From a virus (Duplodnaviria; Caudoviricetes): a DNA stretch of 41,629 nt. The translations under genes and the position numbers were made by a program. Numbering within the stretch: the stretch's first letter is position 1; each line of letters begins with the position of its first letter. Below are positions 1-40,752 of this stretch, in pieces. A model generated the notes under the pieces. The model worked only from the letters and a program-made list of their open reading frames with translations, did no database searches and was not told the DNA's origin. The stretch spans positions 1 to 41,629 of the IMG/VR virus record IMGVR_UViG_3300020045_012448. One strand, 5' to 3'.

Positions 1-2
1 TG

Positions 3-2030
3 CATTCGAATGTGGAAACGATTGTTCCGGCCATTTACAATTCAACACCAATTCCAGACATTCGCCGCCGCTATATCGAGGCAACGGGACCGGAACCAAC
101 ACAGCCGCAGCCAGACCCGCAGGGGCAGGTAGACCCGAACGCAATCGCCCAATACCAGCAGGCAGCGCAGGAATACGGCTCCCGCAAGCAGCGTGATGAC
201 GATGCGAAACTCTACAGCGACATGCTGGAACGCCTGATAGCGGCACAGATCGACGACAGCCGGTTGGATGCAGAGATTGAGGCGCAGGCACAGGACGCAT
301 TCACGACAGGCCGTGGCGTGGTTCGCTTGCGCTTTGAAGCGGACATGGATGAACAGGACCAGCCGATAAACGAGCGCGTGACGTTCGAGGCGGTGTCTTG
401 GCGCGATTTCCGTATGGGTCCGGCCAACCGTTGGGACAGAACGCCGTGGGTGGCATTCAAAATCCCGATGACCCGCGATGAATCGGAAAATATTGCAGAC
501 CCTGCCATGCTGGAAGCGCAAAAGAGCGCCGATGACGTGGAAATGAACGAAGACGACGAGGACGACAACGACGTTTGCGTTTGGGAAGTATGGGACAAGG
601 ACGAACGGGAAGTCCTGTTTATCGAAGATGGCGGGCGCTTGCTCAAGAAGGTTTCAGACCCGCTTGAACTGCCGACATTCTTTCCGATTGCGCAGCCTGT
701 GCAGCCCATCACCAAGGTTGGGTCCACAATTCCTGTTTGTCCGTTCACGGTTTACAAGAAACTGGCTGATGAACTCGACAACGTAACCAAGCGCATCAAC
801 AAGATCATGAAGGGCCTGAAGGTTCGCGGCATTGTTGCTGGTGATGCTTCGGCGCTGATTTCCCTTGCGGATGCTGATGATAACGAAATCAAGGTTGAAA
901 CCAATCTCGAAGCCTTGGCGCAAACAGGTGGGCTGGACAAGGCCATAGCATGGTGGCCTGTCGAGCAGGGCATCAAGGTGCTGGCTCAACTTTATCAGCA
1001 GCGCGAAAGCATCAAGGCGTCTATTTACGAAATCACCGGCATATCCGACATTGTGCGCGGCGCTTCCAATGCTGGCGAGACTGCCACTGCGCAGCAGATC
1101 AAGACGCAATGGGGTTCGCTTCGCATTCAGAAAATGCAGCGGATGATCGAGCGCCAGGTGCGCGATATATTCGTGATGATGGCTCACATCGCATCAACCA
1201 AGTTCTCCGAAGCCACGATTGTCCAAATGACGGGCCTTGCGTTGACGGATGGCGTTCGGGCGCTGATGCAGCAGCCTATCGACGCTGGATACCGCATTGA
1301 CGTTGAGAGTGATTCAACCGTGCGGGCAGACCTGACACGGCAGAAGTCCGACATGACAGAGTTTATGACGGGAACGGCCAACTTCTTCTCGTCAATGGCT
1401 CCTGTGGTGGCACAAGCCCCTGAAATGGCCGAACCGTTGTCAGAGATTTATGCAGCGGCGGCGCGGTTCTACAAGTTGGGCAAGGGTCCAGAGGACGCGC
1501 TTGAACGCATGACGGCAATTGCCAAGAAGGCAGCAACCACGCCACGGCCAAATCCAGAGGCCGAAATGCAAAAGATGGAAGCCGAAAAGGCAAAAGCCGA
1601 AATGGGTTTGAAGGCCGACGAACTCAAAGGCAAGGCCATGCTTGAGATGGAAAAGCTGAAGCTGGAGGATCGCCGCGTTTCGCTGGAGGAACAAAAAGCC
1701 GCTGCGGAATATGAAGGGCGCAGCGTTGATAATCGTTTCCGCGCCGAAGATCATAAACTGAAAGTGGCGATGGCCGGTGCGCGTCAAACAGAAGACGGCG
1801 AGATCGAAGACAAAACCGACAAAGTTGGCTCGATGATCATGCAGGCGCTGATGCAACTTGCCCAAACACAGCAACAGCACGGCGATGCGCTCTTGCAGGG
1901 CTTGCAGCAATTGCAGGACGGTAACCAGATGATCGCCGCAGCGGTTACGGCTCCGAAGCGCACTGAATTTCTCATAGACCCCGCAACCGGAAAGCCTACG
2001 GGCGCAATCCAACAAACGATGGTGAATTGA
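3..2030 (+). CDS. Phage portal protein (P22-like), 5'-truncated by the window edge
   Basis: Frame is open from base 3 (HSNVETIVPAIYN). Portal-like motifs YEITGISDIVRG, ETATAQQIK and YRIDVESDST, plus a C-terminal coiled-coil barrel. Confidence 0.8.
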   Translation, partial: HSNVETIVPAIYNSTPIPDIRRRYIEATGPEPTQPQPDPQGQVDPNAIAQYQQAAQEYGSRKQRDDDAKLYSDMLERLIAAQIDDSRLDAEIEAQAQDAFTTGRGVVRLRFEADMDEQDQPINERVTFEAVSWRDFRMGPANRWDRTPWVAFKIPMTRDESENIADPAMLEAQKSADDVEMNEDDEDDNDVCVWEVWDKDEREVLFIEDGGRLLKKVSDPLELPTFFPIAQPVQPITKVGSTIPVCPFTVYKKLADELDNVTKRINKIMKGLKVRGIVAGDASALISLADADDNEIKVETNLEALAQTGGLDKAIAWWPVEQGIKVLAQLYQQRESIKASIYEITGISDIVRGASNAGETATAQQIKTQWGSLRIQKMQRMIERQVRDIFVMMAHIASTKFSEATIVQMTGLALTDGVRALMQQPIDAGYRIDVESDSTVRADLTRQKSDMTEFMTGTANFFSSMAPVVAQAPEMAEPLSEIYAAAARFYKLGKGPEDALERMTAIAKKAATTPRPNPEAEMQKMEAEKAKAEMGLKADELKGKAMLEMEKLKLEDRRVSLEEQKAAAEYEGRSVDNRFRAEDHKLKVAMAGARQTEDGEIEDKTDKVGSMIMQALMQLAQTQQQHGDALLQGLQQLQDGNQMIAAAVTAPKRTEFLIDPATGKPTGAIQQTMVN

Positions 2031-2031
2031 T

Positions 2032-2469
2032 ATGCCCGCTTCAACATTTACGTTTTATCAAGATTTCAAGGAACAGCTCGGCAAGGGCGTTCATGATCTT
2101 TCAACGCATGATCTGAAAATCGCGCTGACGAATGCCGCACCAAACGTGGCAACGCATACGGTTTTGGCCGACATTACGCAGTTGGGAACGGGTGGCGGCT
2201 ATACCGGAGGCGCTGGCGGTGGCGTGGCACTTTCAGGCGAAAGCTACACTGAAAGCGCGGGAACCGGCACATTCATCGCGACGGATTTGGTGATCACTGC
2301 TTCAGGCGGCTCAATCGGGCCGTTTCAATATGCCGTGCTGTATAACAACACTGCCACGTCACCGGCAGACGCTTTGATTGGCTATCTGAATTACGGTTCG
2401 GCGATGACATTCGCCGATACTGAAACGCTGACGCTTGACTTCACGACGAGCATCTTCACTATTGCATAA
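2032..2469 (+). CDS. Phage virion structural protein (G/T/A-rich beta protein)
   Basis: Directly follows the portal. DLKIALTN...GGYTGG...IGPFQYAVLYN...LIGYLNYG resembles common small phage virion proteins. Confidence 0.65.
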   Translation: MPASTFTFYQDFKEQLGKGVHDLSTHDLKIALTNAAPNVATHTVLADITQLGTGGGYTGGAGGGVALSGESYTESAGTGTFIATDLVITASGGSIGPFQYAVLYNNTATSPADALIGYLNYGSAMTFADTETLTLDFTTSIFTIA

Positions 2470-2479
2470 GGTGTAGGCC

Positions 2480-3625
2480 GTGGCCACTCGCCTATACTTC
2501 AACGTCAAAAGCGCACCTGTTGCACCGTCTTCGTGGTCCGCTGGCTGGAATACTACCAGCGGCACGTTTAACTATGCTCTTGGTGACAGAGACGTAGCTG
2601 CGGGCGGGGTTGATATAGCCAACGGTGGCACTGGCACAACAAGCCAGTATCGCGCACTTGGCCGCTTTGTTTCTGCTCCACTCGCCGCACAAACCATCAG
2701 CGGGACGGTCAAAGGGCAAGTTAATGCCCGTGAAACCAACGCAACTGATAATTACTCTCTCGCCATCGGCATTAAGGTTATCCAGTCTGGCGGCAGTGAT
2801 CGCGGGGCAGTGCTTGCTGTAACCGCACCCGATGCTTCCGGCAATGAACTCGCCATAACCACCAGCACTAATCGCTCTTTTCGGGATAGTGCTGAAAGTG
2901 CAAGCATCTCATTATCGTCACTTGCGGTAAGCGACGGTGACAGAATTGTTGTTGAAGTTGGCTTCTACCAGCAATCAACTTCAACGGCTAATGCGTTCAT
3001 TACCCTTGGCGACACGCATAATGTCGCTGATCTTGCTGAAAACGAAACGACAACCACAAGCCTGGCGGCATGGGTCGAGTTTTCTCAAGACTTGCTGTTC
3101 AGCGACATTTTTCCAAGGGAACATTATTCAATCCCGACTGACAACGGGACTAATGCCACTACCGGCGTCACCATTACCCCGCAAACCGCAATGCGGACTA
3201 ATGATCTGGTTCTCGTTTATTGCCAGTCCCGCGCATCAGCCACATGGTCGGTGACAACCACAGGAGGACAGACTTGGAATGACGCAGGCGCCATAGGTGC
3301 TGCCGGTCCTTACGGGCGCTTATACTGGTGTGTATTCAACGGCACTTGGTCTGCAAATCCGGTTTTTACATCTACGGTAGGCACTGCCACCTCAGCAATA
3401 ATGCACTCGTTCTGTGCTCCGGACACTACAGGGACATGGGCAGTTGATAACGCTCTTGCCACTGCAACATTCACCGCTCCGTCCACACCGTTTACAGTCA
3501 CACGTACCGGCGTCACCACTACCGGCTCTATCGGCGTTGTCCTTGCCTCTTGGCACACGTCAGAACAGTATGTGCCTTGGGCCGATATGGATATGCTCTC
3601 GCCACACTGCGGGCATTCATCATAA
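2480..3625 (+). CDS. Virion fibre/appendage protein, truncated at a junction near 3545-3565; the last ~20 aa are probably chimeric
   Basis: S/T/A/G-rich beta-domain sequence that changes character abruptly after VVLASWHTS. Confidence 0.6.
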   Translation: MATRLYFNVKSAPVAPSSWSAGWNTTSGTFNYALGDRDVAAGGVDIANGGTGTTSQYRALGRFVSAPLAAQTISGTVKGQVNARETNATDNYSLAIGIKVIQSGGSDRGAVLAVTAPDASGNELAITTSTNRSFRDSAESASISLSSLAVSDGDRIVVEVGFYQQSTSTANAFITLGDTHNVADLAENETTTTSLAAWVEFSQDLLFSDIFPREHYSIPTDNGTNATTGVTITPQTAMRTNDLVLVYCQSRASATWSVTTTGGQTWNDAGAIGAAGPYGRLYWCVFNGTWSANPVFTSTVGTATSAIMHSFCAPDTTGTWAVDNALATATFTAPSTPFTVTRTGVTTTGSIGVVLASWHTSEQYVPWADMDMLSPHCGHSS

Positions 3626-3780
3626 TCATCTGCGCAATCAGCACATAAGGTCTCGTGCTGTCCGGCTCTACTGTGCATCAGATGGGAGCAATCATCACAC
3701 ATACTATCCTGACACCATTCGCAAGCATTAACTTGTTTCTCTTCGTCATATTCCTCGTTGCATATGGGACAGCTTTTCAT
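3543..3780 (-). CDS. Multi-CxxC zinc-finger protein, N-terminal part (broken at the left junction)
   Basis: MKSCPIC...CEWC...CDDC...AGQHETLCADC...CPQC...YCSDVC. The ORF-track extension to 3310 is antisense read-through of the left segment. Confidence 0.7.
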
Positions 3781-3943: not shown

Positions 3944-6019
3944 ATGGAAACCGCAGCGTCAAAAGAATACCTTATAGAGCATTGGTCGCAATCTGCAGTC
4001 GCGGAATTTATCCGCAACGAAAAATCATTTGAGCGAAAATATATTTTCGGAATTAAAGAGAAAGAGCGCAGTCTGGCATCCATAATCGGGAGCGTCTATC
4101 ATGGCACTTTGATGCATTTTTTTCTGGAAATTAAATCAAAAGGAACTGGTGAGATTCCGAGTGTTGATATCCTTTTGCAGGTTGCGCATGATCTTCTGGA
4201 TCATATCGGCGCGGACAAATACAGGCCGCAAATCAAAAAAACAATTGAACAATTACAAGCGGCCGCACTCAAGGCCGTAAATGCGTTGGTGATGAATTTC
4301 CTCGCGGAATGGTCTACTTCATACGCGCCGGAAATCCGGGAAATCCTGTTTGTGGAGGAGAGGTTTGTGGCTACGATTTCTTTGAATGATATTGAGGTTC
4401 CGATCCCCGTCAAGATTGTTCCAGACGTTGTTTTCGTTCATAAGGACGGTACGCTGGCGATCTTCGACCATAAGGCGAAGCATGCCTACACGAAGGAGGC
4501 AGACGTGAAGTTACGATACGGCAATCAAGCGATCACATACGGCAAAGGCGTAAAGGCCGCGATATCCGAGAACGAGGAATATCTGGAAGCCCTAAAAAAA
4601 TATCCCTTGATTGCGCGTGGCGTGAAGCATTTTTATTTTTACGAGAATAAATATTCTGCGAATCGCGACGGCTCCCGGCAGATTCGGCAAATTCCCATTG
4701 ATCTTGAAAAAGAAGGCCAGCTTTTTGAGCAGGTTTTATTCGAAGGGGTCTTCCGGATGATGGAAGCGGTCGGTAATCCAGATTATATTTACTTGATGAA
4801 TCCGTCAGATAATTTCCAAGCCGGAGATGAAATTATGGACTTCTGGATCAAGACGCATATTGATGGCATTGAAGGATTTCCAAGTTTGTCCGCAAAAAAT
4901 AAACGGATTCTATCACAGCGAAGAAGCCAGGTGCGCCGGGCCGCGCTGACCGGCATTCCCAAAAGCGTAATTAAGGCGTTCACGCAACCTAAGGATTTTA
5001 TATTTTTTAATAATAAAGATATGGCTGATCTAACCATTCCGGAGCGCATAGAGCATCGGCTCCGATCATTCAATTATCCCGTGCAAATTCGGCACGTCAT
5101 AGAGGGGTATTCTTGCGACACCTATCTTCTGGATATAGGCGCAGGCCAAAAAACGACCAGCCTGCAGAATTACAGACTTGATATTGCGAATGCAGCTGGC
5201 GCGCGCGACGTACGCATCATTTCTGGAATGGTGGAGTATCAAGATGGTGTTTTTCCGGGGATAGAGATCAACCGGAAAGTTCCACGGCCATTGCAGCTTG
5301 ATGTTTTTGATGCAAGCACAAAAAAAATTCCAATCGGACGGACAAATTTCGGGGAACTCATAACATGGGATATTGAGAATCCAAGCCATCCTCATATGAT
5401 GATCGCAGGAGCGTCTGGCAGCGGCAAATCGGTAACGATCCGCGTTATCGTAAACGAGGCGCTTCGCAAAGGAATCCGCGTGACGATTTTGGATCCGAAG
5501 CGCGAATTTTTAGATCTTAAAAATGGCAAAATAAGGGTAATTAATGACCTTCCGGACATTGAAGTTTTTATGGGAAATGCTGTCATCCGCATGGATAATA
5601 TTTTCCGCGAACATGGTGCGGTCGGAAATTCCGCAAACAAAGAGCTGATTATTTTTGACGAATCTGCAGACTGCTTCGCGCGAATGCAGAAAATCGCGTA
5701 CGAACAGGATGACGAAGGCAATAAGAGAATTGACCGCGATTTTAAGACGCTTGAGGATAACGTGCTTATTCTCGCACAGAAAGCGCGTTCAGCGGGCATC
5801 CACTTAGTATTGGCGGCGCAACGATTCAGCACGAAAGTTCTGACAGGCGACGCGAAGGCGAACTTCCCTGTCCGTCTCTGCCTGACGGTTGCTAGTGCGG
5901 TAGATTCGCGGGTCATGTTGGACGTGGGTGGCGCGGAAAAACTGAACGGAAAAGGGGACGCGCTATTTACTGCTCCGGGATTCCCAGAGCCAATACGGAT
6001 TCAATGTTTCACACTTTAA
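3944..6019 (+). CDS. PD-(D/E)XK (RecB/Cas4-like) nuclease fused to an FtsK/SpoIIIE alpha-beta motor
   Basis: N-terminus: HWSQSA, YHGTLMH, EERF, PDVVF, IFDHK, QAITY. C-terminus: FtsK alpha domain, Walker A PHMMIAGASGSGKS, Walker B IIFDESAD, AQKARSAGIHLVLAAQR, GAEKLNGKGDALF. Probable start is the ATG at 3944 after an A-tract. Confidence 0.88.
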   Translation: METAASKEYLIEHWSQSAVAEFIRNEKSFERKYIFGIKEKERSLASIIGSVYHGTLMHFFLEIKSKGTGEIPSVDILLQVAHDLLDHIGADKYRPQIKKTIEQLQAAALKAVNALVMNFLAEWSTSYAPEIREILFVEERFVATISLNDIEVPIPVKIVPDVVFVHKDGTLAIFDHKAKHAYTKEADVKLRYGNQAITYGKGVKAAISENEEYLEALKKYPLIARGVKHFYFYENKYSANRDGSRQIRQIPIDLEKEGQLFEQVLFEGVFRMMEAVGNPDYIYLMNPSDNFQAGDEIMDFWIKTHIDGIEGFPSLSAKNKRILSQRRSQVRRAALTGIPKSVIKAFTQPKDFIFFNNKDMADLTIPERIEHRLRSFNYPVQIRHVIEGYSCDTYLLDIGAGQKTTSLQNYRLDIANAAGARDVRIISGMVEYQDGVFPGIEINRKVPRPLQLDVFDASTKKIPIGRTNFGELITWDIENPSHPHMMIAGASGSGKSVTIRVIVNEALRKGIRVTILDPKREFLDLKNGKIRVINDLPDIEVFMGNAVIRMDNIFREHGAVGNSANKELIIFDESADCFARMQKIAYEQDDEGNKRIDRDFKTLEDNVLILAQKARSAGIHLVLAAQRFSTKVLTGDAKANFPVRLCLTVASAVDSRVMLDVGGAEKLNGKGDALFTAPGFPEPIRIQCFTL

Positions 6020-6544: not shown

Positions 6545-6645
6545 AATCTACAATCTGACCTGCCCTCACCCGTCATTTCATGCGTTCGCTTGGTCGTGGG
6601 CTTATGTTTTCCGGCGGGATGGGCAGGTCAGATTGTAGATTTTTT
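6545..6645 (+). promoter_or_regulatory. Long stem-loop with U-tract in the leader of the replication initiator
   Basis: Perfect 21-bp inverted repeat AATCTACAATCTGACCTGCCC (6545-6565) / GGGCAGGTCAGATTGTAGATT (6621-6641), ending in a T run. Confidence 0.8.
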
Positions 6646-6657
6646 ATAAAAAGAAAG

Positions 6658-7443
6658 ATGAAAGAAACATTCTATTTCCCGCATGACATGGACGCACACA
6701 GTGATCCGAAGATAATGGAATTGCTGTGCTCATGCAGCGTTGCGGGACTTGGTTTTTACTGGATCATTATTGAAATTCTGCATCAGCAAGAAGATGGCCG
6801 CATTACGCTGGCACAATTCCGGCAATATTTGAGCTTTTATTTGAAGATTGGCGATGGAGTAGATTCAACACTTGTTGAACACTTGTTGAACAAAATTGAA
6901 CAAAATATGATTTCGGAGAATGATGACAAACTTTTATTAAAAACAGGTGATCTGATCTCTTCCAACAGAGTGGATGAAAACAAGAAATTTAGGCAAAGTC
7001 TATCCAAAAAGCGTTCTGCGGCTGGGAAGAAAAGCGCAGAGGCTAGAGCTTCCGCAACAAGTGTTGAACACATGTCAACAAGTGTTGAACAAAATGCAAC
7101 AAAGGAAAGGAAAATGAAAGGAAAGGAAAATGAAAAGAAAGAATCTCTTTCAGAGATTGAGCAAGCTCGGCCCGATAAAAGAAATTTAGAAATCTCAAAA
7201 ATGCTTGAGGCATTAAAAACAAAAATTGGAATAACTGATTTCGCCGATTCAAGCATTGAGCGCAATCTCGCCAAGCATTGCGTTGGCTTACTTGGGAAGC
7301 TGGGAAAAGATGAATTTGTCCGGCGGCTTGATTTAATTTTGCAGGATGATTTCAAGCGCAAAAACTGCAATCGGATTCGCTTTGTTTATAGCGAAATAAA
7401 GGCTTTTATTGAGCCGAAAAATAAAGAAATTTTATCTGTTTAA
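6658..7443 (+). CDS. Phage replication initiator (DUF4373/Lin1244-like)
   Basis: MKETFYFPHDMDAHSDPKI...GLGFYWIIIEILHQ N-terminus, a KRSAAGKKSAEAR motif and an iteron-encoded linker. Start moved to the ATG at 6658. Confidence 0.8.
   Translation: MKETFYFPHDMDAHSDPKIMELLCSCSVAGLGFYWIIIEILHQQEDGRITLAQFRQYLSFYLKIGDGVDSTLVEHLLNKIEQNMISENDDKLLLKTGDLISSNRVDENKKFRQSLSKKRSAAGKKSAEARASATSVEHMSTSVEQNATKERKMKGKENEKKESLSEIEQARPDKRNLEISKMLEALKTKIGITDFADSSIERNLAKHCVGLLGKLGKDEFVRRLDLILQDDFKRKNCNRIRFVYSEIKAFIEPKNKEILSV
6864..7132 (+). repeat. Iteron clusters; putative replication origin inside the initiator gene
   Basis: TTCAACA-CT-TGTTGAA palindrome plus TTGAACA repeats (6864-6905), CAACAAGTGTTGAACA x2 with a 21-bp period (7055, 7076), and AAAGGAAAGGAAAATG x2 (7101-7132). 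Confidence 0.65.
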
Positions 7444-8217: not shown

Positions 8218-8622
8218 ATGAATGAACGTGAACTGCAAAATCAGATCGTAGAATATATCAGATTGCTTGGCGGATGGGCAACGAAAGTGCAATCGGGAAG
8301 CATCCTGAAGGCATACACTAACAAATTTGGGCAAACGCGGATGACCCGAATTAACCTCGCAGATCAGGGAACTCCTGATGTCATTGCCTGTTTGTTTGGC
8401 CGCTTCCTTGCCATTGAAGTTAAGCGCGATGCTGAAGAATTGGCCGCGTGGGAAAATCAGTGGCAGCGTCATCTGTCCGGCAAACAATGCAAAAGTTACC
8501 AGCACAGCATTGAACAGCACGAAAGCCAGTCGCGCGTGCGGAAGGCTGGCGGCCTGACATTCGCCGTCTGCTCGCTTGAAGAACTGGAAAACGATTTCAG
8601 AGAGTTAAAATTAATCGCATGA
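8218..8622 (+). CDS. VRR-NUC / Holliday junction resolvase-like nuclease
   Basis: ERELQNQI, GTPDVIAC, FLAIEVK, KAGGLTFAVCSLEEL. Confidence 0.85.
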   Translation: MNERELQNQIVEYIRLLGGWATKVQSGSILKAYTNKFGQTRMTRINLADQGTPDVIACLFGRFLAIEVKRDAEELAAWENQWQRHLSGKQCKSYQHSIEQHESQSRVRKAGGLTFAVCSLEELENDFRELKLIA

Positions 8623-9275
8623 AAAAACTCACAGCAGTTATGATAATCAGGTTTCATTACGCCGCCGCCGATAAGCGTTTTGATTGGCGCTTTAAATATT
8701 TTAGGGATGAGGTGTTGCCGCGCATTCTCGCGCAAAAGAACCAGAATTTTGACATCGCCATCCGTTGCAATCCAGAACACGACAAACTGTTTCAGGATTT
8801 GCATCCAAGCATCAAAACTTTTCACGTCCGGAATGAACGCGTGACATATTTCAAAAGTAAGAATGGCAAGCGATACTTCCACGATCATGCGCGCTGGGAT
8901 GAGGTTGAAGGATTGCCGATGTATGACATCCAGATGGGACTTGATAGCGACGACTTGATTGATCCTGATTATGTTCACATTATCCGCGCAAACTGCAGGG
9001 CATTCATGCGAAAGAATCTCGGGAAAAAGCTGCACATTTCATTCCAACCGCGAAAACTCTATCTAAAAAACGGCTATGAAACGGGCATGATGGAATACAC
9101 GCCAACGCGTGGCTCTGCCTTTATGGCCTTATTTCAGCCGATAAAGGACGCAACGTATAAATTTATTTACCACACTTCACATCTGAATTTGTGGAAAGTG
9201 GCAGACAAATCAATTACAATTCCGCAAGGTCACTGCACCGTAAGCATTCACGGACATAACGAATCAACACGATGA
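8619..9275 (+). CDS. GT-A fold glycosyltransferase (putative rhamnosyltransferase-like)
   Basis: RFHY...RFKYFRDEVLPRILAQKNQNF and DxD motif GLDSDDLI. Confidence 0.72.
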   Translation: MKKLTAVMIIRFHYAAADKRFDWRFKYFRDEVLPRILAQKNQNFDIAIRCNPEHDKLFQDLHPSIKTFHVRNERVTYFKSKNGKRYFHDHARWDEVEGLPMYDIQMGLDSDDLIDPDYVHIIRANCRAFMRKNLGKKLHISFQPRKLYLKNGYETGMMEYTPTRGSAFMALFQPIKDATYKFIYHTSHLNLWKVADKSITIPQGHCTVSIHGHNESTR

Positions 9276-9766
9276 AAATAGATGAACAATTAAAGGCGAG
9301 AAAATGGCTTTTTGCAAGCAATAATTGGCCTACACGCACGGCTGCAATCGCAGAAATTATCCCGCCCGAAGCGTCAATCATTGAACTTGGTGCCGGCATG
9401 TGTTTCTTGCACGAATTACTCCCCAACAATCCATACACCGGAATTGATAAAGAATTCTGGACGGACAAAATCATCAGGAAGGCAGATTTCAACGCCGGTG
9501 AATTCCCGGAGCTAGGAAAATTTGATGTGATCGTCTGCCAGGGCGTTCTGGAATACATCAAAGACCTTGAAAAGTTTTTGCTGGCTATTCACAAATACGG
9601 ACGCCGCCTGATTTTGAGTTATTACAACGGGCCGCAGTGCCCTGCGCGAAAAAATAAAATGAAATTTGTTTGGCTGGAAAATTTGCTTGAAAAAACGGGC
9701 TGGCTGCAAATACGCTCGCGTAATCTGACATTGCATCAGCGGCTTTATTTATTATTAAGAAAATAA
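9272..9766 (+). CDS. Class I SAM-dependent methyltransferase
   Basis: IIELGAG, YTGID, ADFN, FDVIVCQGVLEYI. Confidence 0.85.
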   Translation: MKIDEQLKARKWLFASNNWPTRTAAIAEIIPPEASIIELGAGMCFLHELLPNNPYTGIDKEFWTDKIIRKADFNAGEFPELGKFDVIVCQGVLEYIKDLEKFLLAIHKYGRRLILSYYNGPQCPARKNKMKFVWLENLLEKTGWLQIRSRNLTLHQRLYLLLRK

Positions 9767-9767
9767 A

Positions 9768-10502
9768 TTGAAATGTTACTGGTACAAAGAGAGCCTGCAC
9801 GCCAACCGCGCAATGAATTTCGGTGATCAGTTATCACCGGTCGTTCTTAATTATGTCCTCGGCAGAAAATTCAAACTTGCCGCGCGTAATGAGCACGGGA
9901 AATTGCTGGCAATCGGGAGTGTAATGTCCGCACTCCGTCCCGGCGATGTCGTCTGGGGATCTGGCGCGATCAAGAATCGTCCATTGCAGATTTATCCAGG
10001 CAATAAATTTCTCGCAATTCGCGGGCCAATGACGGGAGCATTGCTTAAACTCGCTGGAGGTGAAGACCCGGGAGTCTACGGCGATCCGGCCTTGTTGTTG
10101 CCGTTGATCTACCAGGCCAAAATCCAGAAGACTGGAGAGGTCGGCATATTGCCGCATTATGTCGATAAAAGCGCTAAGATACCGCTTCAAACTGGCGAGC
10201 ATTACCGCATGATTGACATAACCGCCCCTTGGCCGGAAGTCGTTGACAATATTTGCGCGTGCAGTATGATTCGGACGTCTGCACTACATGGAATAATCGC
10301 CGCAGAAGCATACGGAATCCCTGTAATGTGGGAGCGATATTCGGACAAAATCATTGGTGGCGAATTCAAGTTCCAAGATTATTTCTTAGGCACTGGTCGC
10401 CTAAAACAAATACCTGGCCATTTCACGCAGCCGCTGGAGAATTTGCGTGCTATACAGAACAAGCTTATTGAAGTCTTAAAAAAATATTATGCAAAAGATT
10501 GA
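9768..10502 (+). CDS. Polysaccharide pyruvyl transferase family protein (ExoV-like)
   Basis: NFGDQLSP, AIGSV, VWGSG, AIRGPMT, GDPALLLP, GILPHY, SALHGIIAAEAYGIP. Confidence 0.88.
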   Translation: MKCYWYKESLHANRAMNFGDQLSPVVLNYVLGRKFKLAARNEHGKLLAIGSVMSALRPGDVVWGSGAIKNRPLQIYPGNKFLAIRGPMTGALLKLAGGEDPGVYGDPALLLPLIYQAKIQKTGEVGILPHYVDKSAKIPLQTGEHYRMIDITAPWPEVVDNICACSMIRTSALHGIIAAEAYGIPVMWERYSDKIIGGEFKFQDYFLGTGRLKQIPGHFTQPLENLRAIQNKLIEVLKKYYAKD

Positions 10503-11379
10503 TGTCGTCTACATCTTAGGTCGCGGAAGTTGCTGGAATGATAACGAGTTGCGTTACTCGCTCCGCAGCATTTCAAAATATTTCCCTGCAGCGGGTCGGG
10601 TTTTTCTAATCGGCGAAAAACCCGAATGGGTGCAGGGAGTAATCCACATCCCGGCTCCGGATAAGTTTGATAATAAGGTTCTGAACGCGAGAGTGAAATA
10701 TACTATTGCGGCCGAAGATCCGCGCGTCAGCAAAGACTTTGTGCTGATGAATGATGATATTTTCTTTCTCAAAACGGTAAATGACATCCCGAATTATAGT
10801 CGCGGCAAAATGGCGGAAATGATTGAGAGGCATCCAACACACAACGGCTATTATTACCACACTCTCAAGGATACTTACCGACGGCTTGATGCTATGGGAA
10901 TTCCAGATGCGATTGATTTTGAGGTGCATTGCCCTATTATTTTTAATAAAGAAAAATTGTTGTCAGTAATGGGGATGATCGGAACAGCGAAACCTTATTC
11001 TATACGCTCGGCATACGGGAATTTGATGCGATTAGAGCCGAAACATACGCGAGATTTTAAGGCCGCAAACATGATGGAATTTGCACTGCAGCACATGAAT
11101 CCGTTTAGTGGTTTTCTCTCAATTAATGATGCGGTCGTAGCGGATGAAGGCTTCCGTGACTGGATGCATACGAGATATCATCGCATATCAAAATACGAAA
11201 TTGATGAAAGGGGCTTAGGAATTTTGCCGGGCCGACCGATTTATGCGCGCCGATATTCCGCGCGGAAAAGCTTTGTTTATGGCAAGAATAAATATCAGCC
11301 AGGAGATATCATTACTTCGCCAGACATTGAAACCATCAAAAACACGCCAAAGCTCGCGGATTGCTGGATGTGGCGCTGA
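10489..11379 (+). CDS. Stealth-family sugar-phosphate transferase
   Basis: IDVVY, ELRYSLRSI, P.W, FVLMNDDIFF and EVHCP match Stealth conserved regions. Confidence 0.72.
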   Translation: MQKIDVVYILGRGSCWNDNELRYSLRSISKYFPAAGRVFLIGEKPEWVQGVIHIPAPDKFDNKVLNARVKYTIAAEDPRVSKDFVLMNDDIFFLKTVNDIPNYSRGKMAEMIERHPTHNGYYYHTLKDTYRRLDAMGIPDAIDFEVHCPIIFNKEKLLSVMGMIGTAKPYSIRSAYGNLMRLEPKHTRDFKAANMMEFALQHMNPFSGFLSINDAVVADEGFRDWMHTRYHRISKYEIDERGLGILPGRPIYARRYSARKSFVYGKNKYQPGDIITSPDIETIKNTPKLADCWMWR

Positions 11380-12066: not shown

Positions 12067-13431
12067 ATGAAAATTACTTGGAAAAATGATCGAAGAAAAG
12101 TTAAGGATCTGATTCCCGCTGATTACAATCCGCGTTTGCTGACCGAGAAAGATAGGCATGATCTGGAACAAAGCATCCAAAGATTCGGAGATGCTGACCC
12201 GGTCATAGTCAACGCTGGTACACGCGCGAATGTTCTGATCGGCGGGCATCAGAGGGTTATGATTTACGCAGATCTCGCATGGGATGAGATTGATGTCCGA
12301 GTCCCAGAACGCGAATTAACAATCGCCGAAGAAACGGAACTCAATATCCGCCTGAATAAGAATACGGGGCACTGGGATGAGGATAAGTTAAGGCTTTTTG
12401 ATCAAGGTTTCTTGTTGGGCGTGGGATTCGATAAAGTGGAAATGTCGCGTATCTTTGACAAAGCCGAAGCAAAAGACGACGCCTTTGATCCTGACAGCGC
12501 TCGGAAACAGAAAGCCGAAGCAAAAGACGACGCCTTTGATCCTGACAGCGCTCGGAAACAGAAAGCCGAAGCAAAACTTGGCGACGTTTTTGAACTTGGT
12601 CAGCATCGGCTTATGTGTGGCGACGCAACAAGCGCAGAGGATGTTGCAAAACTCATGAATGGCGAAAAAGCACAAATGGTTTTTACGGATCCCCCGTATA
12701 ATGTCGATTATCAGGGTGGCATGAACATCAAACGCGAGGGAATAATGAATGATGCAATGACGCCGGAATATTTTTATGAATTTTTGCGCAAATCATGCGT
12801 GAATATGCTCGCACATTGTATCGGCGGCGTTTATATCTGCATGAGTAGTTCGGAATTGCACACGCTCAAAATGGCTTTTGAGTCCGCTGGCGGACATTGG
12901 CAGACGTTTATTGTTTGGATTAAAAACAATTTCACGATGGCACGATCCGACTATCAACATATTTATGAGCCTATTCTGTATGGTTGGAATAAAGAAATTA
13001 ATAATCATTACTTCAATCAGGCGCGCAACATTCCAAATGCGTGGGAGGATTTACGAGAAATGAAAACGGTCTTTGACGGCGAACATACGACAATTAAATT
13101 CCAAGGCTTTGAAGTAAAAATCAAGGGCAGGGTGGAGGGGCAAATTAAGCGCAAAAAACAAGTAACGGACATCTGGCGCTATGATAAGCCGTCCGTGAGC
13201 AAAGAGCATCCGACAATGAAGCCGATTGCTCTTTGCGAAGAGGGTATAAAGAATAGTTCGCTCATTGGTGATATTGTCCTTGATTGTTTCGGTGGTTCCG
13301 GAAGCACGCTTGTTGCGGCCGAGCGCATGGGCCGTCGGTGCTTCATGATGGAACTGGATCCGCATTATATTGATGTGATTATTTTCAGGTGGGAACAGGC
13401 CACTGGCATGAAAGCAAAAAAGATAACATAA
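12067..13431 (+). CDS. ParB-like domain fused to an N4/N6 DNA methyltransferase
   Basis: LIPADYNPR, LIGGHQR, HRLMCGDAT, VFTDPPYN, HPTMKP, VLDCFGGSGSTL. Confidence 0.92.
   Translation: MKITWKNDRRKVKDLIPADYNPRLLTEKDRHDLEQSIQRFGDADPVIVNAGTRANVLIGGHQRVMIYADLAWDEIDVRVPERELTIAEETELNIRLNKNTGHWDEDKLRLFDQGFLLGVGFDKVEMSRIFDKAEAKDDAFDPDSARKQKAEAKDDAFDPDSARKQKAEAKLGDVFELGQHRLMCGDATSAEDVAKLMNGEKAQMVFTDPPYNVDYQGGMNIKREGIMNDAMTPEYFYEFLRKSCVNMLAHCIGGVYICMSSSELHTLKMAFESAGGHWQTFIVWIKNNFTMARSDYQHIYEPILYGWNKEINNHYFNQARNIPNAWEDLREMKTVFDGEHTTIKFQGFEVKIKGRVEGQIKRKKQVTDIWRYDKPSVSKEHPTMKPIALCEEGIKNSSLIGDIVLDCFGGSGSTLVAAERMGRRCFMMELDPHYIDVIIFRWEQATGMKAKKIT
12460..12576 (+). repeat. Perfect 51-bp in-frame tandem repeat (2.3 copies)
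   Basis: AAAGCCGAAGCAAAAGACGACGCCTTTGATCCTGACAGCGCTCGGAAACAG x2 plus 15 bp; encodes KAEAKDDAFDPDSARKQ. Confidence 0.97.
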
Positions 13432-21654: not shown

Positions 21655-23601
21655 ATGGCTAATTTAATAGATTCATACAGCGAAGCAAACTATAATAGTG
21701 ATTCAGATATTTTCGGGGCTGCGTCAGGATATTGGGGGCAAAGTTTCACGGTGGGTGCTTCGGATATCACACTTGATTCATGCAAATTTTATCTTACGAA
21801 AGCAGGCAGCCCGACCGGGAATATGGTTGCTAAACTTTATGCGCATACCGGCACTTATGGAACAAGCAGCAATAAGACAGGTGCTGTTTTGGCTACGAGC
21901 AATACAGTGTCGGTAGCGGATATTGCTACTTACCCATCCCATACTTTACAAGCCTTCACTTTTTCCGGTGCAAATAGGGTAACATTAGCCGCTGCCACTC
22001 ATTATTGTATAGAAATTGATTTTGAAGGTGAAGCAGCTCCGACAAATTATTTATATGTAGGCGTAGACACGTCTAGTCCAACCCATGGCGGGAATGCGTA
22101 TTCTGGGGCCGGATATTATTCTACGCGGGATGTTTGTTTTTATGTTTACGGGGTTTTGCCCCCATCGCAAGTTTCCATCACAAAATCGCTGAAATATTGT
22201 TTAAAAACGACGCCATCAGCAATCACGAAAGGACTGATTTATAAAATCAAAGCTCCTCATTCTGCCGCCACGAAATCGCTGAAATTTACGGTGAAAGCAC
22301 CTGCCACGGCTATTCAAAAATCGCTCAAATATACTGCGAAAATCACACCTACCGCGAAAACAAAGAGTCTAAAATATGATATTTATCTCGGCCATTTTTC
22401 GGCGACAAAAACTTTGCATTTTGCAGTTCGGAAAAACATTACAGCGACAAAATCGCTCAAGTTCACCGTGCGTGTTGTGCATTCTGCAATTCAGAAATCT
22501 TTGCATTTTGCGATAAAACCATCAAGCGCGAAGACCGCGAGCCTAAAATACTGCATAAAAATTCCTGCTTCCGCAAAGACCAAGGGGTTAATTTATCGCA
22601 TTAAAAAGCCACAGACGGCAAAACAATTGTCTTTGCGTTACGCGATGCGTCCGGCTGTTAGCATTTCAAAAAGCTTGAAATTCACAGTTAGAAAAACCGT
22701 TTCAGCCATTCAGAAAAATTTGCGGTATTCAATAAGGCCAGCAGTGGGCATTCAGAAATCTTTGAAATATTGCATAAAGCTCACACCATCCGCGCTGCAA
22801 AAGACATTGAGATTTACGATTTATCTTGGGACAGCGACGGTCGGTAAACAATTGAAGTTTGAGATTTTGAACGCGAAACAAATCACGAAGGCGCTGAAAT
22901 ATGAAATCCAGACGCAAACTCAAATTGACATTCAGAAGTCCTTGCGATATTTGGTGAAAGGAAATTTGTCTGTTCAAAAATCGCTTATCTATGACATTAA
23001 AGCCTCAAGAAATATTTCTAAGGGATTGGCCTTTACTGTCCGGATTTCTCCGTCCGCGATTGGAAAAGATCTAAAATTTGAAATCAAAATTTCACAACTG
23101 CCGCTAACGAAAAACTTGAGATATGCGGTAAAAACCCCCAAATCTGCAATTCAGGAGGAACTAAAATTCGCCGTAAAAACTAATCATCAAATAGCAAAAG
23201 ATCTTAGATATAAAATCGGAACAGGCAAGTCAGCGCAAAAAGAACTCGTTTATCATATTCGCAAACATTCATGCGCCACAAAGTCGCTTTCTTATAGGAT
23301 ATTTAAGGCGATTTCCCATCAAAAAAGTTTACATTATTCAGTAAAAATAAATTCCGGCGCGCAAAAAACGCTTCAATATGAGATAAAAAGAAGTCATCAG
23401 ATACAGAAATCGTTACAATATCGGTTGCGGTTTTTTCGTGAAATTGTAATCCAGAAAAATTTAAAATTCACCATAAAATCGCAGAGGGTATCGGTGAAAT
23501 CGCTTCAATATGTGGTGAGAATTTATCCATATAAAAAGAAGCCAATCACTCCATATACGCCAAAAGTGAAGCCGTACAAGTCGCTCATTCACACACCATA
23601 A
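21655..23601 (+). CDS. Fibre-like protein: N-terminal beta-sandwich plus ~31 basic 14-16-aa repeats
   Basis: GQSFT...FYLTKAGSP...TLAAATHYCI head domain followed by xxK(S/x)LxY/Fx(I/V)K/R repeats. Confidence 0.75.
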   Translation: MANLIDSYSEANYNSDSDIFGAASGYWGQSFTVGASDITLDSCKFYLTKAGSPTGNMVAKLYAHTGTYGTSSNKTGAVLATSNTVSVADIATYPSHTLQAFTFSGANRVTLAAATHYCIEIDFEGEAAPTNYLYVGVDTSSPTHGGNAYSGAGYYSTRDVCFYVYGVLPPSQVSITKSLKYCLKTTPSAITKGLIYKIKAPHSAATKSLKFTVKAPATAIQKSLKYTAKITPTAKTKSLKYDIYLGHFSATKTLHFAVRKNITATKSLKFTVRVVHSAIQKSLHFAIKPSSAKTASLKYCIKIPASAKTKGLIYRIKKPQTAKQLSLRYAMRPAVSISKSLKFTVRKTVSAIQKNLRYSIRPAVGIQKSLKYCIKLTPSALQKTLRFTIYLGTATVGKQLKFEILNAKQITKALKYEIQTQTQIDIQKSLRYLVKGNLSVQKSLIYDIKASRNISKGLAFTVRISPSAIGKDLKFEIKISQLPLTKNLRYAVKTPKSAIQEELKFAVKTNHQIAKDLRYKIGTGKSAQKELVYHIRKHSCATKSLSYRIFKAISHQKSLHYSVKINSGAQKTLQYEIKRSHQIQKSLQYRLRFFREIVIQKNLKFTIKSQRVSVKSLQYVVRIYPYKKKPITPYTPKVKPYKSLIHTP

Positions 23602-33894: not shown

Positions 33895-34830
33895 TCAATT
33901 AGCCAATACTTCTATTGCCTTAAATATTTCGTATGCCACCTGTGGCACGATTGCGTTGCCGTATGCCTTTAATTGCTCCGCTCTGTGGCGGCTCTTGGAT
34001 AATTTAAATTTGCCCAATTCAACGGAAAGCCCATCATCCACGCTACAAAGTTCGGCTGCAACTTCAGGCCAGTTTTGATTCCAAGAGCGTTCGGTAACTG
34101 ATCGTGATGCCCTCTGTCTTTTGCCAGATGCTTGTACCCATTCATCCCCTTGTAATCTCTGGTCGCGGGCGTTGGCAACATTTGCAACGCCGTCTGCAAA
34201 TCCTTGCCGCCCTGTCCATGTATGCTTGGGCCGTTTGCGTTTTGCGCTTTCGGCGTAGGTAACAACGCAATTTTTCCGGAAAGTGTCGGGGTTTTCTTTG
34301 TCCTGCTTCCGCTCCATTGCCACGGTGCCGATTCGCTTGCTCGGCAGGTTGGCAATAAACCAAACTCGATCTCTTCGATGTGGCGCGTTGACGGCGACAG
34401 CTGGAATAATAATCGGCTGCACTTCGTACCCGATACCTTCCAGATCAGATTGCACCTGTTGGAATACCACACCGGATTCAAGAGTAATGAGGCCACGCAC
34501 GTTTTCAGCGACGACCCATGTCGGCTTGATAATTTGTATAATTCTAAGCATCTCCAGCCAGAGGAAACGGTCATCTTCCGCGCCTCTTCTTGCACCCGCT
34601 TGGCTGAACGGCTGGCACGGAAAGCCGCCGGTGATAATGTCAATTCGTCCAGTGTAATTTGATGGATTGAAGGTCTTGATGTCGCCATATCGTTTTACTT
34701 TAGGGAAATTCTTTTTTAAGACTTCATTACAGAATGGGTCATTTTCCACTTGGAATATGTTTTTCCAGCCCATCCATTCCGCCGCAAGGTCAAAGCCGCC
34801 GATGCCAGTAAATAAACTCGCGTGATTCAT
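33895..34830 (-). CDS. DNA (cytosine-5) methyltransferase, alpha chain
   Basis: Motifs I FTGIGG, IV GGFPCQPFS, VI ENV, VIII HRRDRVWF and X YGNAIVPQVA; motif IX is absent from this frame. Confidence 0.93.
   Translation of the reverse strand: MNHASLFTGIGGFDLAAEWMGWKNIFQVENDPFCNEVLKKNFPKVKRYGDIKTFNPSNYTGRIDIITGGFPCQPFSQAGARRGAEDDRFLWLEMLRIIQIIKPTWVVAENVRGLITLESGVVFQQVQSDLEGIGYEVQPIIIPAVAVNAPHRRDRVWFIANLPSKRIGTVAMERKQDKENPDTFRKNCVVTYAESAKRKRPKHTWTGRQGFADGVANVANARDQRLQGDEWVQASGKRQRASRSVTERSWNQNWPEVAAELCSVDDGLSVELGKFKLSKSRHRAEQLKAYGNAIVPQVAYEIFKAIEVLAN
33969..34574 (-). CDS. Nested alternative-frame beta chain of the C5 methyltransferase (start uncertain, 34688 or 34574)
   Basis: LLPT/LPTP repeats and motif IX-like LQPNFVAWMMGFPLNW, as in the M.EcoHK31I arrangement. 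Confidence 0.7.
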   Translation of the reverse strand: MTVSSGWRCLELYKLSSRHGSSLKTCVASLLLNPVWYSNRCNLIWKVSGTKCSRLLFQLSPSTRHIEEIEFGLLPTCRASESAPWQWSGSRTKKTPTLSGKIALLPTPKAQNANGPSIHGQGGKDLQTALQMLPTPATRDYKGMNGYKHLAKDRGHHDQLPNALGIKTGLKLQPNFVAWMMGFPLNWANLNYPRAATERSN

Positions 34831-34938: not shown

Positions 34939-34998
34939 TTAAGGTTCTTTTGAGTGTCCATTCATGACAGAGTTTGCGGATTTTGTTTCGTGCTGCTG
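34939..34998. repeat. 60-bp direct repeat, copy 1
   Basis: 59/60 identical to 36501-36560. Confidence 0.95.
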
Positions 34999-36490: not shown

Positions 36491-37134
36491 GGCTTATTGA
36501 TTAAGGTTCTTTTGAGTATCCATTCATGACAGAGTTTGCGGATTTTGTTTCGTGCTGCTGCTGCTGCTGCTGCGCGTGCTGCTGCGTCTGCTGCTGCGTC
36601 TGCTGCTGCTGCTGCGTATGCTGCTGCGTCTGCTGCTGCGTCTGCTGCTGCGTATGCTGCTGCGGCTGCTGCGTATGCTGCTGCGTATGCTGCTGCGCGT
36701 GCTGCTGCGTCTGCTGCGCGTGCTGCTGCTGCGCGATTTTTAGGCGTATCGGATTTTAATACCCTTTTCGCAGCTTCAATAGCTTCCCTAGGGAGTTTAC
36801 CATTGGGGCATTCCTTTTCGTAAATGTCAATAACCAATTCTGCGGCATAGATTGCCAGCGCAACGCTGTCTTTCTTTGTCCATTTGTAGGTTTTGACAAT
36901 CTTCATTTCCGACCAGCATTCTTTGTCGGCCTGAATCTCATGCTCCCCCCGCACCTCCACTCTCGCAAGAACGCCGCAATTGACATATCCCATAGCGTCT
37001 ATGATGTTCTTGCTGGCATGAAAACCGCGATTGCAGATTTGGATTTCACCATCAATCTTGTTCCAGACTCCTTCCTTGAACTGGAAACCGTTTGGTTTTA
37101 TGTCTGCGGGGAGTGATTTGTAGAGAGTTTTCAT
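36487..37134 (-). CDS. Phage protein with a C..GFHA N-terminal domain and an Ala-rich low-complexity tract
   Basis: ICNRGFHAS...LARVEVRG, ALAIYAAELV...PREAIEAAK, then AAYAAADAAA repeats encoded by a GCA-rich microsatellite at ~36553-36735. Confidence 0.75.
   Translation of the reverse strand: MKTLYKSLPADIKPNGFQFKEGVWNKIDGEIQICNRGFHASKNIIDAMGYVNCGVLARVEVRGEHEIQADKECWSEMKIVKTYKWTKKDSVALAIYAAELVIDIYEKECPNGKLPREAIEAAKRVLKSDTPKNRAAAARAADAAARAAAYAAAYAAAAAAYAAADAAADAAAYAAAAADAAADAAARAAAAAAARNKIRKLCHEWILKRTLINKP
36501..36560. repeat. 60-bp direct repeat, copy 2
   Basis: 59/60 identical to 34939-34998. Confidence 0.95.
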
Positions 37135-38551: not shown

Positions 38552-39484
38552 TTAACGACGATCGTGCTTGAGTGCCGCTTTTTTCTTTTTGCCGGCATCA
38601 ATTTTTTCGTCCTCCGATTCCTCAAATGCCACCTCAACAAGTTGGCGCTCCGGGCCAGTAATATATCCGCCGCGTTCATTGATACTGTCTACTTGGATGG
38701 CGCGCGCCAGAGTTTCGCCCTCAACTTTTTCGCTCGTGGGAAGCAGCTTTGCCATCTGCTTAAAAACCGTCTTCATCCACATCCATAACATCGGATCGCC
38801 TTTGGCCCACGGGCCGGAATCTTTTGCTTTGGACATTTCCTTGATCTTCATTATGTCGGCTTTCGTCATATAGCGAAAGATTTTGCGTCCGTTAATCTCC
38901 GCCCACGCATAAGCTCCGATTGGTTCGCCGCGAACAGCAGCGGTACGCTCATGCTCTAGTCGCGGTGATGTGCCGAGAATTTCTCTAAATTTGTCATTCG
39001 CGTAGACGACTTCGGCATCGCACATAGTGATGCCAGAGCGGTAAGCGAGAGTCTTAAGTCCGCGATATCCGATCTGGAATTGCGCGATATTTCCGTAAGG
39101 CAGAACGTAACAATCGCCGGCGGCACTGCCGGGATAAAGTCCTAAGGCAGCGCATTCCATGAATGCGCCGATAAGGGATTCCTGCGTGCATGTTCGCAGC
39201 TTCGGAATTCGTTGAACAACATGCGCGACAGCAGACATGAATCGCAGAGCGTTTTGTTCGTTCCCGAGAAAATTATTCAATGCCGCCCTCTGCCCAGCAA
39301 GGAGTATTCTCACAGGATCAGATGCGGACTTTGCGACTGCGCTGGATGCCTTGGTGTCCACTATTACGTGAGTTGTTTGTTTTGCGCCTGCTCCCTGACT
39401 CTCGGCTATAACCGCAACAACCTTTTTTTCGCTCGGAGGCAAAAATGCGGTTTTTGTTTCGTTGAATGGTAATTCTGGTTCCAT
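38552..39484 (-). CDS. recT: RecT-family single-strand annealing protein
   Basis: PKLRTCTQESL, LGLYP, CYVLPY, AQFQIGYRGL, IGAYA, SGPW, MWMKTV. Confidence 0.92.
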   Translation of the reverse strand: MEPELPFNETKTAFLPPSEKKVVAVIAESQGAGAKQTTHVIVDTKASSAVAKSASDPVRILLAGQRAALNNFLGNEQNALRFMSAVAHVVQRIPKLRTCTQESLIGAFMECAALGLYPGSAAGDCYVLPYGNIAQFQIGYRGLKTLAYRSGITMCDAEVVYANDKFREILGTSPRLEHERTAAVRGEPIGAYAWAEINGRKIFRYMTKADIMKIKEMSKAKDSGPWAKGDPMLWMWMKTVFKQMAKLLPTSEKVEGETLARAIQVDSINERGGYITGPERQLVEVAFEESEDEKIDAGKKKKAALKHDRR

Positions 39485-40751: not shown

Positions 40752-40752
40752 C

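What the first reader, a model, noticed from the sequence alone, without database searches (positions are those of the whole stretch)
3944..6019. Nuclease-FtsK motor fusion as the first rightward early gene
Seen: one uninterrupted ORF joins a RecB/Cas4-like PD-(D/E)XK nuclease to complete FtsK alpha and beta domains. It ends right after the beta domain (PIRIQCFTL), with no TM anchor and no gamma domain. Known: FtsK alpha/beta forms a hexameric dsDNA translocase, and HerA-NurA couples a related motor to a nuclease. Inference: this is a single-chain motor-nuclease that could resect DNA ends for RecT (no separate RecE/Exo gene was recognised), degrade host DNA, or move phage DNA.
Basis: partly seen in the sequence, partly recalled or inferred. 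Interest (0 to 1): 0.85.

Follow-up and report, generated by a model that had tools for sequence, protein, structure and literature searches.

The report
Motorised nuclease partner of phage annealases
This uncultured phage encodes one protein that joins a RecB-type DNA-cutting domain to an FtsK-type DNA pump; in related phages it takes the place of the small exonuclease that normally partners a DNA-annealing protein, so it likely uses ATP to feed DNA ends into its own nuclease and would make single strands for the phage's RecT.

Summary
Confirmed. 3944-6019 is one 691-aa frame: a RecB-type PD-(D/E)XK nuclease (no Fe-S cysteines, so not Cas4-type) fused to FtsK alpha-beta, with no membrane anchor or gamma domain. 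About 80 full-length homologue clusters exist, mostly in Bacteroidota prophages and uncultured phages; both active sites are near-invariant. In 102 of 106 related loci an annealase-slot gene lies just upstream: RecT, Bet, Erf, Rad52/Sak, Sak4-like or unnamed families. None of 107 fusion loci carries a stand-alone exonuclease, whereas 71 of 75 fusion-free RecT groups do. FtsK moves DNA from beta to alpha, which points it at the nuclease. Best reading (0.7): an ATP-driven end-resection enzyme replacing RecE/lambda Exo, working like HerA-NurA without being a member. Partners share a C-terminal tag. This window's clade keeps only its basic helix, even though RecT here is transcribed away from the fusion. 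No activity, ring or binding is shown. The scan reported this system on at least seven other genomes; I found no paper on it in limited searches.

The parts
3944..6019 (+). Nuclease-FtsK(alpha-beta) fusion gene, 691 aa
3965..4855 (+). RecB-family PD-(D/E)XK nuclease domain (about residues 8-304): S15-x-S17, G49..H53, E138, D161, D175-x-K177, Q195xxxY199; family-specific E234-N-K236..N240..Q246
   Evidence: Pfam PF12705; motif conservation; AdnA nuclease Z 17.1 and 3l0a Z 16.9
4856..5023 (+). Helical linker (about residues 305-360), lower confidence at 331-360
5024..5293 (+). FtsK alpha domain (about residues 361-450)
5294..6016 (+). FtsK beta (RecA-fold) ATPase: Walker A G489-S496 (5408-5431), Walker B D572-E573, arginine finger R615, Q626-R627, G635, K638
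38552..39484 (-). RecT annealase, predicted partner, transcribed away from the fusion
   Evidence: PF03837 E 2e-32; phrog_148; same divergent layout in L001, L137, L138
38567..38602 (-). Basic C-terminal helix tag of RecT (about residues 295-306), shared with Bet-like partners of this clade's fusions; the terminal [LM]P part is absent
3538..3780 (-). Small Cys-rich ORF opening the leftward arm at the divergent junction; paralogue of 39921-40085; left end runs into apparently foreign DNA
6580..7443 (+). Replication-initiator-like gene downstream; its cluster is in 44 of 89 loci

Best explanation
The gene encodes one chain joining a RecB-type nuclease to an FtsK alpha-beta motor, and it likely serves as the ATP-driven end-resection partner of the phage's RecT, in place of RecE or lambda Exo. 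Shown: both domains, intact catalytic motifs, no anchor or gamma domain, an annealase-slot gene next to it in nearly all relatives, and no second exonuclease. Inferred steps: (1) the motor would form a ring on duplex DNA without KOPS guidance, most simply at a free end; (2) it would pump DNA from the beta face to the alpha face, where the N-terminal nucleases sit, the same order of parts as HerA-NurA; (3) the nuclease would degrade one strand (5' strand assumed by analogy with RecE) and leave a long 3' tail; (4) the annealase would be recruited through its basic C-terminal helix and pair that tail for recombination, repair and concatemer formation.
For: Conservation: D161, D175, K177, Walker A G/K, D572, E573, R615, Q626, R627, G635 and K638 are in 78 of 78 aligned proteins, Q195 in 77 of 78. 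These motifs also hold at 85% or more in each of three clades down to about 25% identity. R615, R627, G635 and K638 map on FtsK's arginine finger R620 and DNA-gripping loop II R632/G640/K643. Direction beta to alpha: PMC7321959, passages. Context: 102 of 106 loci have an annealase-slot gene ending within 600 nt upstream; 72 are in named annealase families and 30 in three unnamed families (names checked on 31 representatives). Most overlap the fusion's start codon. Partner family changes at least 34 times on a 100-row tree, so the link is to the function, not to one gene. Exclusivity: 0 of 107 fusion loci and 0 of 14 RecT groups with the fusion have a YqaJ-, YqaJ-like or DUF3799-type exonuclease, against 71 of 75 RecT groups without it. 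Tag: terminal [LM][PLM] in 74 of 81 main-clade partners versus 1 of 75 fusion-free RecT; basic helix in 8 of 9 partners of this window's clade versus 2 of 75. Two further genes not used to set the pattern (L140, L220) both carry the helix (read by eye). The helix persists where RecT points away from the fusion (window, L001, L137), so it is not an artefact of gene overlap.
Against: No activity, polarity, oligomer or ATP dependence was measured. In this window RecT is not in the fusion's operon, and their true distance is unknown because both ends of the record look foreign. FtsK loop I is only half kept: the K657 position is A652 (K in 3 of 78) and the R661 position is K/R in 59 of 78. The distant clade has the fusion beside RecT with neither tag part (0 of 12), so the tag is not required family-wide; the helix is also in only 35 of 81 main-clade partners. 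Tag patterns were chosen after seeing the data, most family profiles were built from these same genes, the 106 loci are not dereplicated, and related rows are not independent. The exonuclease screen used three profiles, and only 70 of 107 loci had 3 kb or more on both sides. Six nuclease domains on one ring is an odd stoichiometry for a one-strand cutter.
Confidence: 0.7

Rival explanations
1. A processive double-strand shredder: the motor would feed host (or rival) DNA into six nucleases to destroy it, and the annealase link would be secondary.
For: Six nuclease sites could cut both strands. Related HerA motors occur in anti-phage complexes (structures listed). PADLOC hits exist, for the motor half only.
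Against: Strict exchange with the recombination exonuclease and start-codon overlap with annealases. Many carriers look temperate: an integrase cluster is in 18 of 89 loci.
Confidence: 0.1
2. Two jobs in one chain: the nuclease would act as an ordinary ATP-independent RecE-like exonuclease, while the motor does something else on the same intermediate (clearing proteins or host end-binding enzymes, driving branch migration, restarting forks).
For: The nuclease half resembles 3l0a (Z 16.9), which PMC3424549 groups with RecE/DUF3799 (passage). The linker is low-confidence and pTM is 0.54. FtsK stripping proteins off DNA is recalled, not from a call.
Against: The fusion order puts the nuclease on the motor's exit face, and the two halves stay fused across about 25-100% identity.
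Confidence: 0.15
3. A DNA-moving device for packaging, injection or segregation of phage genomes, with the nuclease cutting concatemers.
For: FtsK-family motors package or transfer DNA in other elements (TcpA Z 26-28). Stand-alone FtsK alpha-beta genes occur in cultured phages.
Against: Terminase small and large subunit and portal genes are present elsewhere. No TM or gamma domain. The gene sits among replication and recombination genes.
Confidence: 0.04
4. Assembly or annotation artefact joining two genes.
For: The record looks chimeric at both ends; no reads were available over the ORF.
Against: About 80 full-length clusters and 107 of 107 loci with both halves in one frame, including isolate genomes.
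Confidence: 0.01

Closest known systems
Phage exonuclease-annealase pairs (RecE-RecT, lambda Exo-Red beta, YqaJ-RecT, DUF3799-RecT)
   Same: PD-(D/E)XK nuclease encoded beside an annealase in the replication region; the fusion and these exonucleases exclude each other. YqaJ and DUF3799 are named as usual RecT neighbours in PMC8093625 (passages).
   Different: The nuclease carries a full FtsK alpha-beta ATPase, whereas lambda Exo is ATP-independent (PMC3424549 passage). One fusion family pairs with at least six named annealase groups.
HerA-NurA end-resection complex
   Same: FtsK/HerA-superfamily ring motor predicted to push a DNA end through its N-terminal (exit) face into a nuclease (PMC9960219, passages).
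   Different: One chain, not two; motor closer to FtsK (Z 33) than HerA (Z 19.8); alpha domain instead of HAS barrel; PD-(D/E)XK nuclease instead of NurA; phage-encoded, annealase partner.
Chromosomal FtsK/SpoIIIE
   Same: Alpha-beta fold, Walker motifs, arginine finger and loop II.
   Different: No membrane anchor, no gamma domain, loop I lysine lost, nuclease fused; score 96 against an NCBIfam cut-off of 1566.
RecBCD / AddAB / AdnAB helicase-nucleases
   Same: RecB-type nuclease domain (AdnA Z 17.1) fused to a motor for end resection.
   Different: Motor is an FtsK-type dsDNA translocase, not an SF1 helicase; nuclease is N-terminal; no Fe-S cysteines.

Membership tests
RecB-family PD-(D/E)XK nuclease | E...D...D/ExK catalytic motifs plus QxxxY | tested here: met
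   E138 73/78, D161, D175, K177 78/78, Q195 77/78, Y199 69/78; PF12705 above cut-off
RecB-family PD-(D/E)XK nuclease | Fold | tested here: met
   AdnA nuclease Z 17.1, rmsd 3.7 A, 243 residues; 3l0a Z 16.9, rmsd 5.4 A, 230 residues
Cas4 / AddB Fe-S nucleases | Four conserved cysteines binding an Fe-S cluster (definition recalled) | tested here: not met
   No Cys before residue 391 in the window protein; no invariant Cys
FtsK/SpoIIIE translocase | Alpha + beta domains, Walker A/B, arginine finger | tested here: met
FtsK/SpoIIIE translocase | DNA-gripping loops I (K657, R661) and II (R632, S634, G640, K643) | tested here: inconclusive
   Loop II kept (78, 70, 78, 78 of 78); K657 position K in 3 of 78, R661 position K/R in 59 of 78
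FtsK/SpoIIIE translocase | Gamma (KOPS-reading) domain | tested here: not met
   4-28 residues after the last strand in 78 of 78; no PF09397
FtsK/SpoIIIE translocase | N-terminal membrane anchor | tested here: not met
   Nuclease at the N terminus; maximum hydropathy 1.33
FtsK/SpoIIIE translocase | Hexameric ring that translocates dsDNA | not tested
   No oligomer model was run; inferred from the conserved arginine finger
Phage exonuclease-annealase module | Nuclease gene linked to an annealase gene | tested here: met
   102 of 106 related loci; in the window RecT is on the divergent arm
Phage exonuclease-annealase module | Sole recombination exonuclease of the module | tested here: met
   0 of 107 loci, whole window included, have another one by three profiles
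Phage exonuclease-annealase module | Small stand-alone exonuclease without an ATPase | tested here: not met
   Intact FtsK ATPase fused
Phage exonuclease-annealase module | 5'-3' exonuclease activity and physical contact with the annealase | not testable with these tools
   Needs biochemistry
HerA-NurA | HAS-barrel HerA plus separately encoded NurA nuclease | tested here: not met
   FtsK alpha domain and PD-(D/E)XK domain in one chain
RecBCD/AddAB/AdnAB | SF1 helicase motor | tested here: not met
   Motor half is FtsK by sequence and fold

The most novel reading that the evidence does not exclude
A third design of motor-driven DNA end resection, beside RecBCD-type and HerA-NurA-type machines: a self-contained FtsK ring carrying its own nucleases. 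Phages use it as a universal resection platform onto which any annealase fold (RecT, Bet, Erf, Rad52/Sak, Sak4, and at least two unnamed families that would be new annealases) docks through a portable C-terminal tag with clade-specific versions. It would resect at motor speed, could outrun host end-degrading nucleases, and would give a native dsDNA recombineering kit for Bacteroidota.
Probability: 0.35. Interest if true: 0.88.

Novelty: new variant of a known kind. Interest (0 to 1): 0.68.

Why it matters
Textbook phage recombination pairs use a small ATP-independent exonuclease. An FtsK pump fused to the nuclease would be the first motor-driven member I could find, and a one-protein model for how a dsDNA translocase feeds an end into a nuclease. 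The gene also marks its upstream neighbour as a candidate annealase, which gives a lead on two unnamed phage families (phrog_3657 and cluster c30). Intact copies lie in prophages of cultured Bacteroidota, so the test is within reach and could supply recombineering tools for that phylum.

Tried and rejected
(1) Complex prediction of the fusion with the last 42 residues of the window's RecT: no answer, score 0.01 against a mark of 0.32, controls not folded; no evidence either way. (2) Nuclease half folded alone without an alignment: pLDDT 38, unusable, so no separate fold search of that half was possible. (3) Reads: one run listed, share 0.05, no RNA holder listed. Its contigs matched 3126-3276 and 3357-3507 exactly and covered nothing of the ORF; a hole proves nothing. 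(4) 'Unfused counterpart' in mycobacteriophages: the supplement of PMC8093625 lists recE-recT-x-'FtsK-like translocase' runs in 6 rows. I checked one phage, Xula: that protein holds only an FtsK gamma domain and no motor, so the lead is rejected for it; the others were not checked. Phage Courthouse has a stand-alone alpha-beta FtsK near a Ku gene, with no annotated RecT or exonuclease within 5 kb. (5) No phage record covers 80% of the fusion (0 of 261 matching records). (6) hhalign of the nuclease half against the three exonuclease alignments: not significant. (7) Promoter scan: 7 sites against 6.3 expected, none upstream of 3944. (8) Tag as hitch-hiking DNA: L005 and L007 are identical from the fusion start but only 13-15 of 30 nt alike in the tails; overlapping RecT-exonuclease controls lack the tag. 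Rejected. (9) Search for a tag pocket by clade comparison gave too many differences to single one out. (10) ESM Atlas on the two unnamed partner families: nearest named clusters Rad52/RecT at 0.76-0.77 (phrog_3657) and RecT at 0.92, rank 24 (c30); leads only. (11) Three short representatives covering only the nuclease half (P0127, P0130, P0142) may be cut contigs or real stand-alone forms; unresolved, and shorter proteins were not searched. (12) Host not determined.

Full report
Observation. Pfam finds PDDEXK_1 at 13-236 and FtsK_SpoIIIE at 462-538 above cut-off, and FtsK_alpha at 367-429 below cut-off. The model built on 78 sequences has pLDDT 90 and pTM 0.54. Its C-terminal half aligns to FtsK at Z 32-33 over 306-308 residues, ahead of TcpA (26-28) and HerA (19.8). 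Its N-terminal half aligns to the AdnA nuclease (Z 17.1) and to 3l0a (Z 16.9). There is no gamma domain and no membrane segment, and no cysteine in the nuclease half, so 'RecB-like' holds and 'Cas4-like' does not.

The genome. The window is a whole IMG/VR record classed as linear: a tailed phage with terminase, portal, protease, capsid and tape measure genes. Bases 1 to about 3550 have higher GC (0.53-0.55) and a second, unrelated portal gene. About 40500-41629 holds an M23-type peptidase on the minus strand. Both ends look foreign (inference). RecT lies at 38552-39484 on the minus strand. The nearest relatives (74% identity; L001, L137, L138) have RecT about 0.4-0.5 kb upstream and pointing away, so the divergent layout is real for this lineage. 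Starts are SD-less and A-rich, which by my recall fits Bacteroidota or Patescibacteria; the host is not determined.

The family. 81 of 101 hits are fusion-type, nearly all full-length, at 34-100% identity; the other 20 are ordinary FtsK. More distant fusions appear at 25-33%. The genome scan kept 66 loci, mostly labelled Bacteroidota. Nuclease and motor catalytic residues are near-invariant and hold across three clades. Using the alignment and the residues named in PMC7321959 (passages), the arginine finger and DNA loop II are kept, while the loop I lysine K657 is not. One relative carries what reads as an intein in Walker A (P0108, by eye).

Context. In 102 of 106 related loci (not dereplicated) a gene of an annealase-slot family ends within 600 nt upstream: RecT 28 (3 divergent), RecT-like phrog_561 20, Sak4-like 8, Bet-like 8, Erf 4, Rad52/Sak 4, and unnamed phrog_3657 22, c30 7, c343 1. 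Two loci had too little sequence and two had unclassified genes. Names were checked on 31 representatives; the Sak4 label is weak (AAA_24, phrog_124 at E 1e-6 to 1e-8). The partner family changes at least 34 times on a FastTree of 100 fusions, from which 2 truncated rows were left out; the window's clade of 9 has support 99.

Control. 160 RecT loci, found without regard to the fusion, fell into 89 groups: 14 with the fusion and 75 without. Of the 75, 66 had a neighbouring exonuclease by clustering and 5 of the remaining 9 were found by the profiles, 71 in all. Pfam confirms YqaJ for 26 of 27 upstream types, YqaJ for 6 of 32 downstream types and DUF3799 for 7 of 7. The same profiles found none in the 14 fusion groups or in 107 fusion loci, the whole window included; 70 of these had 3 kb or more on both sides. 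The fusion therefore fills the exonuclease slot.

The tag. Earlier scan notes reported a shared C-terminal tag, and I tested it. After dereplication, a terminal [LM][PLM] is in 74 of 81 main-clade partners across nine groups, 0 of 9 in the window's clade, 0 of 12 in the distant clade and 1 of 75 fusion-free RecT. A basic helix K[KEQ]xx[LMIV][RK] is in 35 of 81, 8 of 9, 0 of 12 and 2 of 75. The patterns were picked after viewing, but two unclassified upstream genes seen later both carry the helix. This window adds two points. Its clade has a shortened tag, shared by RecT and Bet-like partners. The helix survives where RecT points away from the fusion, so it is a protein feature, not an overlap effect. 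What it binds is not shown.

Mechanism. FtsK moves DNA from the beta ring to the alpha ring (PMC7321959). A nuclease fused before alpha sits on the exit side. HerA's N-terminal barrel is likewise described as the putative exit, and HerA-NurA digests the 5' tail during translocation (PMC9960219, passages). Without gamma there is no KOPS guidance, so loading at ends is the simplest guess. I put ATP-driven resection for the annealase at 0.7, a loosely coupled two-job protein at 0.15, DNA shredding at 0.1, DNA transport at 0.04 and artefact at 0.01. Ring formation, polarity, coupling and hand-over are inferred.

What is known. It works like HerA-NurA and sits like RecE, but fails membership of HerA-NurA, chromosomal FtsK, RecBCD-type enzymes and Cas4. 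Paper searches: 5 papers; 4; 0; 20 of 733 listed; 3; 0; 5; 0; no listing described the fusion. I saw passages of PMC5512222 and PMC4569894 (unrelated uses of FtsK). PMC8093625 and PMC3424549 have no FtsK in the main text. Their supplements gave an Mrr_cat + FtsK gamma architecture (file 1 not searched) and 8 gene-context rows in file 1 (file cut when stored; 2 of 13 places seen in file 4). Two older comparative papers on annealases and on the FtsK-HerA superfamily were not held and could mention it. No cultured phage record holds the full fusion. The scan itself has reported the system on at least seven other genomes; these notes are not independent support.

Verdict. Real, widespread, apparently undescribed in print and directly testable: a new variant of the phage exonuclease-annealase module. 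Interest 0.68.

Noticed in passing
window 1-3550: Higher-GC segment with a second portal gene (phrog_12082, E 4e-145) and a fibre-like ORF; likely another phage joined by assembly. The junction falls inside the overlapping ORFs 2480-3625(+) and 3310-3780(-).
   Followed up: partly
window 40500-41629 (-): M23-type peptidase (40753-41343), a short holin-like ORF and a cut fibre-like ORF (last two by eye, no PHROG hit) upstream of the leftward early arm; possibly a second foreign piece.
   Followed up: partly
window 3538-3780(-) and 39921-40085(-): Two paralogous Cys-rich small ORFs (20 of 49 identical, E 1e-10), one at each side of the broken junction.
   Followed up: partly
L005, L076, L088 and others (phrog_3657); L074, L082, L119 (cluster c30); L010; L140:3201-4178; L220:8427-9503: Unnamed protein families in the annealase slot carrying the tag: candidate new annealase families.
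   Followed up: partly
P0108: Fusion homologue of 967 aa with an intein-like insertion in Walker A (by eye).
   Followed up: no
L394:2104-4213: Fusion split inside the motor, by frameshift or sequencing error.
   Followed up: no
L397:4690-5754 (phage Xula gp45): Annotated 'FtsK-like DNA translocase' but holds only an FtsK gamma domain; sits two genes after recT.
   Followed up: yes
window 33895-34830 and 33969-34688 (-): Two overlapping frames on one strand both hit DNA methyltransferase families (phrog_363 E 2e-74, phrog_1008 E 8e-26); the genome has two more methyltransferases (12067-13431, 35171-36196).
   Followed up: no
window 8619-11379: Run of four ORFs of 164-296 aa between the replication and packaging genes; by eye sugar- or methyl-transferase-like, three without PHROG hits.
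   Followed up: no
window 21655-23601: 648-aa ORF with many short K-x-L-x-Y/F repeats among the head-tail genes; no PHROG hit.
   Followed up: no
window 34939-34998 and 36501-36560; 6545-6565 and 6621-6641: A 60-nt direct repeat (98%) and a perfect 21-nt inverted repeat just before the replication-initiator gene.
   Followed up: no
fusion residues E26, E30, E262, E267, D280, E296: Acidic residues kept in both tag-bearing clades and absent in the tagless clade; a speculative surface for the basic helix.
   Followed up: no
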